Shown: in pieces, positions 22,275-51,894 of the stretch
Numbering within the stretch: the stretch's first letter is position 1
Layout: every line of letters starts with the position of its first letter
Origin: Pelagomonas calceolata
Taxonomy: Eukaryota
NCBI GenBank assembly: GCA_918797485.1
Contig: CAKKNE010000006.1
Span: forward strand, 2,232,001-2,296,000
DNA length: 64,000 bases
Direction: 5' to 3'
Made by a program: the position numbers and the translations under genes
The notes under the pieces: generated by a model
Databases searched by the model: none
Told to the model about the DNA's origin: nothing
The model's input: the letters and a program-made list of their open reading frames with translations, nothing else

Positions 22275-22508
22275 AAACTCTGTCCCGATGAGCTTCATGC
22301 GCGCCCATTTAGCTGCCCGAGGCTGCCCCGTTACGTCCTGAACGTTGAAACCCCGCACGATACGCCCCGACGCCACGCCGCCGCACGCCTTAGCCGCCCT
22401 CCGCGCCCGCGACACGCCTCCGCCGTCGGCGAGTGCGTAAATATGAGCCTTCTACGTGGTTCACGAGACGGAACGGATCGCTTGACGCGCATAAATAACA
22501 CAGCCAAC

Positions 22509-23141
22509 TTAGTCCAGTAGCCACTCGTCCCCCGACGCCTTCTCCGTAGGAGCCTCCTCCGATGCCGCCGCCGGCGGCGCCTCGTCTTCGTCATCGTCCA
22601 AACCCAAAGCCGCGTCCAATAAATCGGACGCGTCGTCCGCGAAGAGCGGGTCCTTCTCCTCCTTGACGACCGGTTCGATGTCGTCCACCGCCTCGACCTT
22701 TGTCGTCTTCTTCTGCTGCTTCTTTTTTCTTGGTTTATTGATTTTCTCGTCCTCGTCGTCGTCGACGAAGCGCCCCGCCTTCTCGAGGCGCTCCCAGGGA
22801 CTGAGCATGGCCGGGTGGTTCGCGGGAAGCCGCGCGTGGAAGGGCGCCTCGAAGAACGCGTGCGGCGCGATATTTGCTACTAAACTCAGATCTTCCAGAG
22901 GAGCGTTGTCTCTGGCAGTACCGGGCACGCAGGTCCCTTCGTAGGTCTCGTCGGGCACGTATTCGTCGGGCCAGTCCCGGAACCGATCTAGAGTAGAGTC
23001 CTCGTCCTGCTCGACATAACCAGAACCCTTCGGGGCGTAGAGGTGCCGTTTGATTGAGTGCCTCGTTGGTGTTGTCGTGACGTGGAACGCTGTTGTTGTG
23101 CAGGCGGTCGCGGCGACGGCGGCGCGGCGGAGGCGGCCCAT
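22509..23141 (-). CDS. Hypothetical plastid-targeted protein; its predicted 5'UTR intron hosts tRNA-Trp
   Basis: Leader ...ATACTTTAF (ASAFAP-like); acidic C-terminus. Confidence 0.65.
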   Translation of the reverse strand: MGRLRRAAVAATACTTTAFHVTTTPTRHSIKRHLYAPKGSGYVEQDEDSTLDRFRDWPDEYVPDETYEGTCVPGTARDNAPLEDLSLVANIAPHAFFEAPFHARLPANHPAMLSPWERLEKAGRFVDDDEDEKINKPRKKKQQKKTTKVEAVDDIEPVVKEEKDPLFADDASDLLDAALGLDDDEDEAPPAAASEEAPTEKASGDEWLLD

Positions 23142-23154
23142 CGCTGTTCTGTGC

Positions 23155-23308
23155 CTGTGGGTGTACCGTAGGCGTTGCCGCCATGGCCACCTGTAAAGTG
23201 ACCGATACGCGATTCGAACGCGTAACCTTCAGGACTGGAATCTGACGCGCTGCCGTTGCGCCAATCGGTCGGTCGAAGACAAGTAACGATGAGACGCCGC
23301 CGCGGTAC
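23155..23308 (-). mobile_element. tRNA-carrying intron element, copy 1 (154 nt)
   Basis: Minus strand GTACCGCGGCGGCGTC...tRNA...GCCTACGGTACACCCACAG|GCAC, ending 14 nt before ATG 23141. Confidence 0.65.
23199..23270 (-). tRNA. trnW: tRNA-Trp (CCA)
   Basis: GACCGAT TGGCGCAACGGCAGCGCG TCAGA TTCCAGT CCTGA AGGTT ACGCG TTCGAAT CGCGT ATCGGTC A: 7-bp acceptor stem, CCA anticodon, TTCGAAT T-loop. Confidence 0.93.
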
Positions 23309-23479
23309 GGCTCGGGGACGCCCTTGGGCAGTGCCGGCGAGCGCTGCTAAAGGCCGGCGTTGCGGCGCTGTTGTTGCCGTGTCGCAGTGTTGGCGTCAAG
23401 GACACTTGTGCACACACTTCTTTACTCGGTGACGGCGTGCAAGTGTGGTTTTGCGCCGCTGTTCAACTCTGGCGCAGGT

Positions 23480-23503
23480 GCTAGCGGCATGTAAGACACT
23501 AGC
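23480..23503. promoter_or_regulatory. CTAG-pair upstream element
   Basis: GCTAGCGGCATGTAAGACACTAGC upstream of the tRNA-hosting gene. Confidence 0.65.
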
Positions 23504-23632
23504 ACCGAATTGAGAAACGCGCGTGCGTGCGTAACCCGCACATGACAACGCTGCAGAGGCGGTTGCCGCCGCCGACGGACACGACGCAACGCGCAGGCGC
23601 CGGAGCACGCCACCGAAGCACAGAACTAAAAC

Positions 23633-24145
23633 TTACACCGTCGCATCGTCCGAAGGCGGCACGACGGGCGCCAGGCCGTTCCCATCTCTGGAATCCAAGC
23701 TCAGCGTCACGGGCCCATCATTAATTAACGACACGTCCATCATCGCCCCGAACCTCCCGTCGGCGAGCTTGGAACTTTCGGGCAGCTCTCCTCTCAAATC
23801 ACTCAGAAACGTCTCGTAGAACGCCTTAGCAGGCTCCGGGCCCATCGCGTGGCGCCAGTCGAGGTTGCCGCGCCCCTTCTTTCGTTTCAATTCGCCGTAC
23901 AACGTGAACTGCGAGACGCACAACACATCTAAACCAAGGCTCCCGACCGAATGCTTCCAGGGCCGCCCGTTTTCGTCGGCCCAGAAGTTCGTTTTCAGGA
24001 TGCGTTCGCGGCACCAAGCAGCGTCCGCGTCCACGTCGTCCCGGTGGATGCCCACGAGCACGAGCATGCCTTTGCCGATCTCGCCGACGACCTCCTCGTC
24101 GACGGTCACGCTCGCGCGCTTGACGCGCTGGAGCACGAGCCGCAT
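23633..24145 (-). CDS. DTD1: D-aminoacyl-tRNA deacylase
   Basis: MRLVLQRVKRASVTVD, LCVSQFTLYG, GRFGAMMDVSLINDGPVT. Confidence 0.95.
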   Translation of the reverse strand: MRLVLQRVKRASVTVDEEVVGEIGKGMLVLVGIHRDDVDADAAWCRERILKTNFWADENGRPWKHSVGSLGLDVLCVSQFTLYGELKRKKGRGNLDWRHAMGPEPAKAFYETFLSDLRGELPESSKLADGRFGAMMDVSLINDGPVTLSLDSRDGNGLAPVVPPSDDATV

Positions 24146-24241
24146 CGCCCGAGCGCTTGTCGCTGCGAGGAGCAGCAGAACTTGTGGGCGCGCCAGCGTA
24201 CAGTGATGGGTCGCCTCGGCAGCGTCAATCGGAAGCCGTGC

Positions 24242-24391
24242 CTGTGGGTGTACCGTCGGCATATCTCACCTGTTAAGCCCAGTGACCGATACGCGATTCG
24301 AACGCGTAACCTTCAGGACTGGAATCTGACGCGCTACCGTTGCGCCAATCGGTCGAAGAGAGGGCACGCAGAGGAGACGCGGCCGCGGTAC
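24242..24391 (-). mobile_element. tRNA-carrying intron element, copy 2 (150 nt)
   Basis: Minus strand GTACCGCGGCCGCGTC...tRNA...GCCGACGGTACACCCACAG|GCAC, upstream of the DTD1 ATG. Confidence 0.65.
24283..24354 (-). tRNA. trnW: tRNA-Trp (CCA)
   Basis: Same cloverleaf as 23199..23270 with D-loop GGTAG; identical to copy 3. Confidence 0.95.
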
Positions 24392-24876
24392 GAGGACGCC
24401 CTTGGCAGGTGAGTGTCGTGCGTGCTGCGAGACGCTCCAGCCAAGTGAGCCTGCACAGGCTCTGCGGCGAGAGAATTGCCCGGCGAAGCTGCTGCGGCAG
24501 GCGTAGGACTCGCGAGCGACAACTGCACCGAGTCTGGCTACTGCTGCGCGTAGCGTTGCCGCGTTTCAGACTCCCAATGCGAGAGCCTGCAGCTGCCTCT
24601 GCGAGGCTTAGTCTTTCAACCCAACGACACACGTCGTACGGGACACAGCACACGTCTGGAAGTCTCGTGGAAGCCTAGACAACAAAAAGCGGAGCAGCTC
24701 TCCGTGATGCACAGCGCGGCTGCGGAGACTTTGGGCAGCAAAACGCCGTCCGCGCGTGCGCCTCTCCGGCGCCTACGAGCCGTTCGTAGCTCACGGTCGA
24801 GCTGTTCGTCGCTCACGGTCGCAAAACTAAAAAGGGCTGTGTGAGGATAGCTGCCCAGCTCACAAGGGCATCAGCC

Positions 24877-50463: not shown

Positions 50464-51894
50464 ATGCCGCGGAGCGCCAGACACACGATGGGCGGCCGGG
50501 AAGTCCTCGACGCGAAGACGATGCTGGACCTGCTCGAGGGCTCGGCCTCCGACGGCGGGCCCACGGTCACCATCGACGTGGACGTGTTCAAGGACAACTT
50601 CGGCGCGCCGCCGCCGCGGCGGAGCAGCGTCTCGGGGGGCCGGCGGTCGAGCTCGAGCGGCGCCTCGCGCCGCCGCGAGACGGCGGACCCGGCGCAGCTC
50701 AAGGAGCTGCTCCAGGCGTGCCTACTCGAGGGCAACGACGCGGCGGCGGCCGCGAGCCCGACGAGCCAGCCGCCGCGGCCCGCGCCGCGCCGGAGCCCGC
50801 GCTTCGCCAAGCCGCGGAGGCGGATGACGTGCGACCCGCGCCTGCTGAACCGCCTCGTCATGGAGCACTCGGGCGAGATCCCGACGATCCCCGAGGAGAC
50901 GAGCGCCACGGAGTCGCTCACGTCGAACCCGTACCGCGGCCGCGTCCGTCGTAGGTGCCTTCCGACCGATTGGCGCAACGGTAGCGCGTCAGATTCCAGT
51001 CCTGAAGGTTACGCGTTCGAATCGCGTATCGGTCACTGCCAGCTCGTCGATGCGCGCTGCCGACGGTCCACCCACAGGCTCACGAGCAATCTGACGAGCA
51101 ACCCGGCGACGAGCAACCTCACGAGCGGCGTCAGCAACCTCACGTCGGGCACGGGGCTCGAGTCCTTCGAGGAGAGCCGCGCGGCGGCGGCGCACGAAGA
51201 TCCACAAGAGAACGAGGACGACGACGACGACGAGGACGACGTGAGCTACGCGCGGCCCGTCGCGGCGCGTTCGTCAATTGCGTGGACCTTCGACGAGACG
51301 CGCGCGACGATGCAGGAGCTGCGGCGCCAGCTGCAGATCGAGAAGGAGGTGTCGCGCGACGCCGAGCGCGAGCGCGACGAGCTCGCGCGCGAGTTGAGTG
51401 GAATGCGCGCGGAGCAGGCCGCTAGAAGCGAGGTGCAGCAGGCGCTCGAGGCGCAGCGCGACGCGGCGGCGGCGCGCGCGTCGTCGGCCGAGGGCCGCGC
51501 GACGCGCGCGGACGCGGCGCTCGGCCGGCAGTCCCAGGAGTTCGCGGCCATCGACGCGGACCTCGCGGCGCGGGAACGGGAGATTGAACAAAGCGCCGAG
51601 CGCGTGAAACTCGAGGCCGACGCGCGCGTCGCCGCGGCCGAGCGCGACAAGGCCGAGGCCGAGGCCGAGCTCCTCGCGTTGAGGGACGAGGCGGCGGCTT
51701 TACGGGCGCGCGTGGCGCAGCTCGAGAAGGTCAAGATCACGTCGGGCCTCGCGGCGAAGATCCAGAAGGTCGTTCAGGAGCGCGACGAGTTATTGGCGGC
51801 GGCGCGCAAGGGCGGCCGGTTCAACGACGAGAACGCGGCGCCGTTCGGCGCCGAGGACCTCTCCCAGGCCGGCGGCGAGTGCCGCCAGTCCTAG
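50464..51894 (+). CDS. Coiled-coil protein with LTSN repeats; intron 50931..51077 hosts tRNA-Trp
   Basis: After removing 147 nt the repeat reads ESLTSNP-LTSN-LTSNP-ATSN-LTSG; C-terminal CRQS (CaaX-like). Confidence 0.7.
   Translation: MPRSARHTMGGREVLDAKTMLDLLEGSASDGGPTVTIDVDVFKDNFGAPPPRRSSVSGGRRSSSSGASRRRETADPAQLKELLQACLLEGNDAAAAASPTSQPPRPAPRRSPRFAKPRRRMTCDPRLLNRLVMEHSGEIPTIPEETSATESLTSNPYRGRVRRRCLPTDWRNGSASDSSPEGYAFESRIGHCQLVDARCRRSTHRLTSNLTSNPATSNLTSGVSNLTSGTGLESFEESRAAAAHEDPQENEDDDDDEDDVSYARPVAARSSIAWTFDETRATMQELRRQLQIEKEVSRDAERERDELARELSGMRAEQAARSEVQQALEAQRDAAAARASSAEGRATRADAALGRQSQEFAAIDADLAAREREIEQSAERVKLEADARVAAAERDKAEAEAELLALRDEAAALRARVAQLEKVKITSGLAAKIQKVVQERDELLAAARKGGRFNDENAAPFGAEDLSQAGGECRQS
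50931..51077 (+). mobile_element. tRNA-carrying intron element, copy 3 (147 nt)
   Basis: GTACCGCGGCCGCGTC...tRNA...GCCGACGGTCCACCCACAG; interrupts the codon CC|G. Confidence 0.75.
50964..51035 (+). tRNA. trnW: tRNA-Trp (CCA)
   Basis: GACCGATTGGCGCAACGGTAGCGCGTCAGATTCCAGTCCTGAAGGTTACGCGTTCGAATCGCGTATCGGTCA. Confidence 0.95.

What the first reader, a model, noticed from the sequence alone, without database searches (positions are those of the whole stretch)
23155..24391. Intronic tRNAs lack Pol III oligo-T terminators: possible Pol II, snoRNA-like tRNA biogenesis
Seen in sequence: the 3' trailers are CTTTACAGG (copy 1), CTGGGCTTAACAGG (copy 2) and CTGCCAGCTCG (copy 3), and no run of four or more Ts occurs before the 3' splice site. 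All copies are in sense orientation with the host, and a CTAG-pair upstream element lies at 23480, above copy 1. Established: eukaryotic tRNA genes normally end at a run of at least four Ts. Inference: the tRNAs may be excised from host pre-mRNA introns by RNase P and RNase Z. One host is the D-aminoacyl-tRNA deacylase gene, a tRNA quality-control enzyme, which may be coincidence.
Basis: partly seen in the sequence, partly recalled or inferred. Interest (0 to 1): 0.7.

Follow-up and report, generated by a model that had tools for sequence, protein, structure and literature searches.

The report
tRNA genes carried inside mobile introns
In this marine microalga, transfer-RNA genes sit inside the spliced-out introns of ordinary protein genes and lack the usual tRNA stop signal, so the tRNAs are likely cut out of messenger-RNA introns, and one such tRNA-carrying intron likely copies itself into new genes.

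Summary
Observation confirmed and much wider than the window. Three tRNA-Trp genes each fill a 147-154-nt GT-AG intron on the host's sense strand; poly(A) RNA reads show splicing of copies 1 and 2, a protein record the spliced form of copy 3. The first T4 run is 650-1760 nt away. In 74 related metagenome contigs, tRNAs of ten anticodon classes, often arrays with 1-27-nt spacers, lie in such introns of ribosomal-protein, ubiquitin, cyclophilin and other genes: 29 sense, 1 antisense, 17 unclear of 47 sites; T4 after the last tRNA in 3 of 44 (background 4.5%); no AT-rich upstream region. Intron ends pair into a stem around the tRNA. Introns are precisely present or absent in near-identical alleles, and the single-Trp intron occupies about 23 sites. 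Best reading: snoRNA-like release from Pol II pre-mRNA introns (0.6, untested); Pol III is not excluded (A/B boxes intact). The CTAG element is a general host-gene upstream motif and the deacylase host is coincidence. No description found in ten literature searches.

The parts
23155..23308 (-). Copy 1 intron (154 nt, GT-AG) in the 5' UTR of an uncharacterised gene; partly retained
   Evidence: Splice joint in 25+6 poly(A) reads and an X5 contig; unspliced contigs in X5 and X7
23198..23270 (-). tRNA-Trp(CCA), copy 1 (one D-loop difference from copies 2 and 3)
   Evidence: ARAGORN, Rfam RF00005 58.6 bits
23293..23308 (-). Shared 5' intron end (donor plus GCGTC box); predicted 5' arm of the terminal stem
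   Evidence: Alignment, duplex and fold
23155..23169 (-). Shared 3' intron end: unpaired A at -15 (predicted branch point), 3' arm of the stem, acceptor
   Evidence: Motif search, fold; branch point inferred
22509..23141 (-). Host ORF of copy 1 (210 aa, no Pfam family); transcript 5' end near 23450
23481..23502 (.). CTAG-pair element: recurrent upstream motif of protein-coding genes, not tRNA-specific
   Evidence: 14 matches in the window; 150-380 nt above many ORFs
23633..24145 (-). D-aminoacyl-tRNA deacylase CDS, host of copy 2
   Evidence: Pfam PF02580, E 8.7e-46
24242..24391 (-). Copy 2 intron (150 nt, GT-AG) in the deacylase 5' UTR; absent in orthologue L040
   Evidence: Splice joint in 9+8 reads and X5, X7 contigs
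24282..24354 (-). tRNA-Trp(CCA), copy 2
   Evidence: 61 bits
50931..51077 (+). Copy 3 intron (147 nt, in frame, no stop) inside a coding sequence
   Evidence: Spliced product matches P0035 at 422 of 427 residues; P0002 lacks the same 49 residues; not tested with reads
50964..51036 (+). tRNA-Trp(CCA), copy 3
   Evidence: 61 bits
50464..51894 (+). Host gene of copy 3 (427 aa spliced; a 476-aa record P0033 translates through the tRNA)

Best explanation
These are tRNA genes housed in spliceosomal introns of protein-coding genes, and the tRNAs are likely released from the host's Pol II pre-mRNA intron, as intronic snoRNAs are, rather than made by Pol III. Shown: the intron location, splicing of the window's copies 1 and 2, sense orientation, lack of T-run and of an AT-rich upstream region, and arrays with spacers down to 1-2 nt. 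Inferred: Pol II makes the host transcript; the paired intron ends close the tRNA into one stem-loop; the spliceosome excises it; RNase P and RNase Z cut each tRNA out of the lariat or debranched intron, and CCA is added. Highly expressed hosts (ribosomal proteins, ubiquitin, an eEF3-like ABC protein, cyclophilin) would tie tRNA supply to translation-gene transcription. Also inferred (about 0.65 on its own): the intron plus tRNA is the unit of duplication and inserts at N|G sites without a target-site duplication, sometimes with short flanks of an eEF3-like exon, which would explain three copies in 64 kb.
For: Splice joints at the motif-defined ends. 100 tRNA arrays at 47 host sites: coding-strand sense, 1 antisense, 17 unclear (classifier right in 100 of 101 confident held-out pieces); Pfam domains continue across the introns on the tRNA strand, e.g. 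L24e 7-28|29-65, peptidase C1 58-152|157-205. T4 within 25 nt of the last tRNA in 3 of 44 sites against 4.5% background; mean 4.5 T per 25 nt against about 8 in algae (PMC13578239); T4 in the last 15 nt before the first tRNA in 6 of 41 sites and inside tRNA-Leu(TAG). AT fraction at -40..-20 is 0.28 against 0.50-0.75 in 8 foreign control loci, 7 of which have T4+ within 45 nt. tRNA-Sec starts 1 nt after Trp, Val 2 nt after Sec. Sense-strand poly(A) reads carry Trp-Sec (196+76 reads) and Trp-Trp junctions from other loci. tRNA bodies 96-100% identical between orthologues whose spacers are unrelated. Terminal pairing: own pairs -26.0 against -22.4 kcal/mol for foreign pairs, better in 45 of 61. 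Empty sites. Precedent that Pol II transcripts can yield tRNA: PMC2943599, engineered intronic tRNA-gRNA arrays (PMC6912757).
Against: No result distinguishes the polymerases. A and B boxes of the Trp gene fit the consensus (sequence; consensus recalled), so TFIIIC could bind. Poly(A) reads across an intron show only that pre-mRNA covers it; poly(A) selection cannot see Pol III precursors. Chlamydomonas has polycistronic tRNA genes without poly(T) that are treated as Pol III genes (PMC3531208). Mitochondrial-type tRNAs in human Pol II introns are not processed out (PMC7722341). One RPL8 array ends in T6 in two contigs though not in a third, and a T5 lies between two Arg genes. Loci were chosen by a Trp pattern, so about two thirds of the anticodon classes were not seen; no genome was held. 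Sites are related by descent, which inflates every count, and some contigs are chimeric through the tRNA. The GCGTC box also heads one tRNA-free intron.
Confidence: 0.6

Rival explanations
1. The tRNA genes are ordinary Pol III units that merely shelter in introns of a gene-dense genome: TFIIIC binds the internal boxes, Pol III reads through the array and stops at a non-canonical signal, at a distant T-run, or is released by co-transcriptional RNase Z cleavage.
For: Intact A/B boxes; polycistronic, poly(T)-poor tRNA genes are known in Chlamydomonas (PMC3531208); the share of tRNA genes with T4 varies widely among lineages (PMC13437025); intron-encoded tRNAs may still be Pol III units (PMC2943599). 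Sense bias could be inherited if all introns descend from one.
Against: Ten anticodon classes, none antisense within a locus (23 loci with more than one tRNA, only the window with both strands); distances to the first T4 are mostly hundreds of bases, deep in host exons; T4-5 runs sit just before the tRNA in 6 of 41 sites; the -40..-20 region is the GC-rich splice donor.
Confidence: 0.25
2. The single-Trp introns, including the three in the window, are passengers: a mobile intron that carries a tRNA copy serving as a structural splicing aid, while working tRNA-Trp comes from the arrays in highly expressed genes or from genes not seen here.
For: About 23 sites for a rare amino acid; modestly expressed hosts (depth 20-70); several copies carry single changes (lower Rfam scores); intronic tRNA look-alikes enhance splicing without being processed in human cells (PMC7722341); identity among copies could be kept by gene conversion.
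Against: tRNA body, including the anticodon, stays 96-100% identical while adjacent spacers turn over completely; a compensatory T-stem variant exists; this reading leaves the arrays, which share the same architecture, unexplained.
Confidence: 0.1
3. The introns are old, vertically inherited and not mobile; the shared ends are this lineage's ordinary splice signals, and empty sites are intron losses or cDNA contigs. (Rival to the mobility part only.)
For: A tRNA-free intron has the same 5' box (L023); L040 keeps the exon start that follows the copy-2 intron, as a deletion would; the collection may hold transcript contigs.
Against: Three introns at different sites of one eEF3-like gene share near-identical ends and are reciprocally present or absent; L004, L016, L057 and L076 run into promoter or downstream-gene DNA; the strict 5' motif marks 48 sites, all tRNA introns; an introner-like intron in L012 lacks the box.
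Confidence: 0.3

Closest known systems
Intron-encoded snoRNAs of Pol II host genes (recalled; PMC6912757 passage)
   Same: Small stable RNA in the sense strand of an intron, hosts rich in ribosomal-protein and translation genes, paired flanks, no promoter or terminator of its own.
   Different: Cargo is tRNA, needing RNase P, RNase Z and CCA addition rather than exonucleolytic trimming under snoRNP proteins; arrays of up to seven or more; release not shown here.
Trypanosoma brucei tRNA-Sec, Pol II-transcribed (PMC2943599; abstract and Discussion)
   Same: A tRNA gene embedded in a Pol II unit; the paper also notes a few intron-encoded tRNAs in C. elegans and Drosophila.
   Different: One gene, in a polycistron and not a cis-spliced intron, with a deficient B box; here many isotypes with intact boxes, and the polymerase is untested.
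Polycistronic, poly(T)-lacking tRNA genes of Chlamydomonas reinhardtii (PMC3531208 passage; PMC13578239 sections 20-21)
   Same: Arrays with short spacers and no T-run after inner genes.
   Different: Described as clusters or islands of often variable orientation, not as intron contents; here even last and single genes lack a T-run.
Introner elements of Aureococcus, Pelagomonas and Micromonas (PMC9860276 passages; PMC9481584 passage)
   Same: Homologous introns at many unrelated sites, presence/absence between close relatives, inverted-repeat-like ends, same algal class.
   Different: No target-site duplication; cargo is an essential host gene; spacers are hypervariable, not near-identical; about 150 nt, not about 210 nt; few tens of sites, not hundreds.
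nimtRNAs (PMC7722341; abstract and one Results section) and engineered inPTG arrays (PMC6912757)
   Same: tRNA structures in Pol II introns; inPTG shows RNase P/Z release from an intron is possible.
   Different: nimtRNAs are organelle relics that are not processed; inPTG is synthetic. Here the genes appear to be the cell's own cytosolic tRNAs.

Membership tests
Canonical Pol III (type 2) tRNA gene | Internal A and B boxes | tested here: met
   Sequence of the three Trp genes against the recalled consensus
Canonical Pol III (type 2) tRNA gene | Run of at least 4 T shortly after the gene | tested here: not met
   0 of 3 in the window; 3 of 44 sites, background 4.5%
Canonical Pol III (type 2) tRNA gene | AT-rich or TATA-like upstream region (not universal in algae) | tested here: not met
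   AT 0.28 at -40..-20 over 41 sites against 0.50-0.75 in 8 controls
Canonical Pol III (type 2) tRNA gene | Pol III/TFIIIC occupancy and triphosphate precursor | not testable with these tools
   Only poly(A) RNA-seq was found
Intron-encoded, Pol II-derived small RNA (snoRNA-like) | Lies in a spliced intron of a Pol II gene | tested here: met
   Splice joints for copies 1 and 2; spliced protein for copy 3; Pfam continuity elsewhere
Intron-encoded, Pol II-derived small RNA (snoRNA-like) | Sense orientation throughout | tested here: met
   29 sense, 1 antisense, 17 unclear of 47 sites; the antisense call is a decayed eEF3-like fragment
Intron-encoded, Pol II-derived small RNA (snoRNA-like) | Mature RNA depends on host transcription and splicing or debranching | not testable with these tools
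   No small-RNA or inhibitor data
Introner (transposon-derived intron family) | Homologous introns at unrelated sites | tested here: met
   39 single-Trp introns at 23 sites, 139-165 nt
Introner (transposon-derived intron family) | Presence/absence in close relatives | tested here: met
   eEF3-like site B empty in L076 and L048 at 98.9% junction identity; site C empty in L004, L057, L076; copy 2 absent in L040
Introner (transposon-derived intron family) | Target-site duplication (present in only some families) | tested here: not met
   Intron ends are constant whatever the flank; only a G at exon +1 in 46 of 50 junctions
Introner (transposon-derived intron family) | Terminal inverted repeats | tested here: inconclusive
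   Ends pair, but the 3' arm stops 8-12 nt short of the intron end and covaries with the leader: RNA stem or repeat cannot be told apart
Introner (transposon-derived intron family) | High end-to-end identity among copies; autonomous transposase | tested here: not met
   Spacers 0.50-0.65 alike even at the same site; a transposase was not searched for

The most novel reading that the evidence does not exclude
This algal lineage has moved most or all of its nuclear tRNA genes out of the Pol III system into spliceosomal introns, makes its tRNAs from Pol II pre-mRNA by splicing plus RNase P/Z, and amplifies tRNA genes as self-copying introns: a tRNA gene and an introner in one unit, possibly with loss of TFIIIC dependence.
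Probability: 0.4. Interest if true: 0.93.

Novelty: new variant of a known kind. Interest (0 to 1): 0.83.

Why it matters
Pol III transcription of nuclear tRNA genes is treated as universal, with trypanosome tRNA-Sec as the tested exception (PMC2943599). A cultured, abundant marine alga whose tRNAs of many isotypes come from mRNA introns would break that rule at genome scale, couple tRNA supply to ribosomal-protein transcription and splicing, and show how RNase P/Z and the spliceosome share one substrate. The precise gains and losses, with an essential gene as cargo, give a natural, countable case of intron transposition. Practically, gene models translate through these introns (P0033, 476 aa against 427), and short-read assemblies become chimeric at them.

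Tried and rejected
No genome was held, so no genome-wide census. A second read-laying, on the RPL8 array locus, gave no result, so splicing of array introns and of copy 3 is not shown with reads. An ab initio intron finder gave too few tRNA-free introns (one clear, L023) to say whether the GCGTC box is general. Rfam found only tRNAs in 64 locus scans, so no U6, 5S or 7SL gene as an in-lineage Pol III control. The intron-plus-tRNA pattern is absent from prokaryotic genomes. Rejected: CTAG pair as a tRNA promoter; a functional link to the deacylase; the AG just after the tRNA as acceptor (reads use the later one); a target-site duplication; swapping of spacers from a shared pool as the whole cause of their variability, since no trailer is shared between sites above 0.74 identity; the free tRNA 3' half as a fixed methylation guide, since its register varies. 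TFIIIC presence could not be tested: no query sequence was available and one search found no statement. Earlier-findings look-ups by sequence, place and words found nothing on this system. Huff 2016 and Cognat 2008 were not held; supplements of PMC9481584, which hold its intron note, were not read.

Full report
Setting. The window is 56-69% GC and gene-dense. The best hit of its fibrillarin named as an alga is Aureoumbra lagunensis, 87% identical (one insect-labelled record at 80% ranks just above it), so I take the organism to be a pelagophyte; Pelagomonas-like is my inference from GC and compactness. No genome was held.

Observation. ARAGORN and Rfam find three tRNA-Trp(CCA) genes, at 23198-23270(-), 24282-24354(-) and 50964-51036(+). 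The trailers are as quoted, and the first T4 on the tRNA strand lies 1757, 652 and 970 nt downstream. On its own this is weak: 89% of 60-nt windows lack TTTT. The three copies share 16 nt 33-38 nt above the tRNA and 15 nt about 40 nt below it; the exact 9-nt core of the upper motif and the lower motif occur nowhere else in the window.

These motifs are intron ends. Two raw poly(A) runs (one sample, about 6% of each read) and two contig sets from other studies (RNA by guess) were laid on 22300-24700. Joints give introns 23155-23308 (25+6 reads, X5) and 24242-24391 (9+8 reads, X5, X7), both in 5' UTRs. Copy 1 is partly retained (X5 intron contigs at depth 180-189 against 248 for the joint; X7 unspliced). 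Reads are almost all of one orientation, which in most stranded libraries is the tRNA strand. Most reads on the tRNAs come from other loci with a compensatory T-stem variant and carry Trp-Sec (196+76 reads) and Trp-Trp junctions. For copy 3, removing 50931-51077 gives 427 aa, 422 identical to P0035; the database also holds the 476-aa read-through form (P0033).

The CTAG pair at 23481 lies about 30 nt above the host's 5' end (23450), recurs 14 times in the window and sits 150-380 nt above many ORFs. It is a host-gene element.

Related loci. A scan of metagenome contigs with a 23-nt Trp pattern gave 86 stretches, 83 loci. I set aside 8 loci of other organisms as controls and dropped 1 partial match (L047); 74 loci plus the window gave 100 tRNA arrays at 47 host sites by flank clustering (some chimeric contigs merge sites, and copy 1 is split from its orthologues). 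ARAGORN calls ten anticodon classes: Trp, Arg(TCG, CCT, TCT), Leu(TAA), Gly(GCC, TCC), Ala, Sec, Val; I also read Ser(TGA) and Leu(TAG) genes with inserts. Of 81 arrays with enough upstream DNA, 79 have a G[TC] donor followed by a GCGTC-type box (pattern built from these data; 5.5% of all 70-nt windows match); the two others have further tRNA or a variant donor upstream. A strict form occurs 48 times, always before tRNA sequence. Donors are GT in 42 and GC in 8 of 50 junctions. Hosts with Pfam hits on the tRNA strand include RPL8, RPL24, L7Ae, ubiquitin, an ABC-F protein I read as eEF3-like, cyclophilin, a cold-shock/CCCH protein, a papain protease, a nucleoside transporter, a zinc dehydrogenase and a KH protein; 24 of 96 pieces had a hit, and domains continue across the introns. 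I saw no free-standing tRNA of this lineage, but the sample is tied to Trp.

Orientation: a coding-strand classifier (103 of 108 held-out pieces right; 100 of 101 with a clear margin) sites sense, 1 antisense, 17 unclear; the antisense call is a decayed eEF3-like fragment. T-runs: T4 within 25 nt after the last tRNA in 3 of 44 sites, background 917 of 20448 windows; mean 4.5 T per 25 nt, against about 8 in algae (PMC13578239). Seven of 8 controls have T4+ within 45 nt, but five are one viral lineage and the eighth is cut at 18 nt. T4 lies in the last 15 nt before the first tRNA in 6 of 41 sites, and AT at -40..-20 is 0.28 against 0.50-0.75. Spacers between tRNAs are 1-27 nt, so arrays are almost certainly co-transcribed, by whichever polymerase.

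Terminal stem. In 61 leader/trailer pairs (7 chimeric or mis-bounded arrays and short trailers left out) the first 24 nt pair with the intron's own 3' region at -26.0 kcal/mol against -22.4 for foreign trailers, better in 45 of 61; z is below -2 against shuffled trailers in 42 of 61; within the Trp family 26 of 38. Pairs are related, so the P values overstate. All three window introns fold with the ends paired and an unpaired A at -15, the likely branch point (inferred).

Mobility. The single-Trp intron was found 39 times at 23 sites, 139-165 nt long, with G at exon +1 in 46 of 50 junctions of all families and no target-site duplication. In the eEF3-like gene three introns share near-identical ends; site B is filled in L004 and empty in L076 and L048 (98.9% junction identity), site C filled in L016 and L048 and empty in L004, L057, L076. 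These contigs run into promoter or neighbouring-gene DNA, which argues against cDNA; L048 is chimeric at one end. A fourth site is filled only in decayed fragments of this gene, and copy 2's flanks resemble it in short. The deacylase orthologue L040 lacks the copy-2 intron with about 170 nt of upstream sequence, which could be gain or loss. Between orthologues the tRNA is 96-100% identical and intron ends mostly 88-100%, but spacers are 56-81% alike even where exons are 97-100% identical; the copy-3 site shows at least five leaders while the RPL8 leader hardly varies. This hypervariability is unexplained.

Mechanism. Most likely (0.6) the host's Pol II transcript is the precursor and RNase P and RNase Z release the tRNAs from the excised intron; every step after splicing is inferred. 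For: location, strand, missing flanking signals, tiny spacers, the nature of the hosts, and precedents (PMC2943599; PMC6912757). Against: intact A/B boxes, no polymerase data, poly(T)-poor polycistronic genes in Chlamydomonas (PMC3531208), unprocessed nimtRNAs in human introns (PMC7722341), and two T5-6 runs at plausible terminator places. Pol III with unusual termination gets 0.25, passenger copies 0.1.

Literature. Ten searches found no description of intron-housed tRNA sets in pelagophytes or of tRNA-carrying introners; the library lacks most subscription journals. Seen: PMC2943599 abstract and Discussion; PMC7722341 abstract and one Results section; PMC13578239 abstract, passages, sections 20-21 (36, 37, 39, 40; 'intronic' and 'polycistronic' 0 hits); passages of PMC3531208, PMC13437025 ('intronic' 0 hits), PMC9481584 ('tRNA' 0 hits in main text, supplements unread), PMC9860276 ('tRNA' 0 hits), PMC3978253, PMC11237714, PMC11282704, PMC6912757, PMC8450103; PMC12130899 gave 0 hits. 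Huff 2016 and Cognat 2008 were not held; what I say of snoRNA hosts and of A/B-box consensus is recalled.

Verdict. The feature is real, lineage-wide as far as sampled, and unlike any described tRNA gene layout I could find. It works like intron-encoded snoRNA expression by inference and spreads like an introner by partial test, without meeting the full definition of either. New variant of a known kind; interest 0.83.

Noticed in passing
window 23481-23502 and 13 further matches (4931, 7186, 18481, 20230, 27050, 29558, 35723, 35828, 37174, 41851, 50268, 62131, 63858): A well-conserved 21-22-nt element bounded by two CTAG, in either orientation, 150-380 nt above many protein-coding ORFs; candidate core-promoter or general regulatory element of this alga.
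   Followed up: partly
L004, L021, L027, L033, L055, L058, L065 (inside tRNA arrays): A free tRNA 3' half (variable loop, T arm in two compensatory forms, Trp-type acceptor strand) with no 5' half beside it, whose start is nearly antisense to the Trp anticodon arm; missed by ARAGORN and Rfam; relic, split tRNA or guide.
   Followed up: partly
L058:560-774, L027:94-200, L004:1115-1215, L055:296-507: Leu genes with variable inserts in the D-loop and a Ser(TGA) gene with an insert after the variable arm: candidate non-canonical tRNA introns.
   Followed up: no
L012:1656-1790(-), inside the deacylase CDS: A tRNA-free insertion absent from the window and L040, with an imperfect 8-bp direct repeat at its ends: a polymorphic introner-like element.
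   Followed up: no
L023:215-325(-) and L009 near 1764: A tRNA-free 111-nt intron with the same 5' box and a TGATGA inside; no Rfam match; possible snoRNA host or sign that the box is a general intron signal.
   Followed up: partly
L028, L039, L049, L053, L067, L084-L088: About 30% GC contigs, also held in the virus collection (one labelled as a giant-virus MAG), carry a closely related tRNA-Trp as a free gene with AT-rich upstream DNA and a T-run at +42, and an intronless ubiquitin gene.
   Followed up: partly
L015:1-1181: A polyubiquitin gene whose repeats are interrupted by introns holding Sec-Trp-Gly and Gly arrays, with GC donors.
   Followed up: partly
window 22392-22428: A 37-nt stretch that attracts about 200+100 poly(A) reads from another locus with two fixed differences; source not identified.
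   Followed up: no
window 50464-51894: A public protein record (P0033) translates through the tRNA intron, 476 aa instead of 427: a likely annotation error.
   Followed up: yes
L004:3926-4290: A long inverted repeat upstream of the eEF3-like gene.
   Followed up: no
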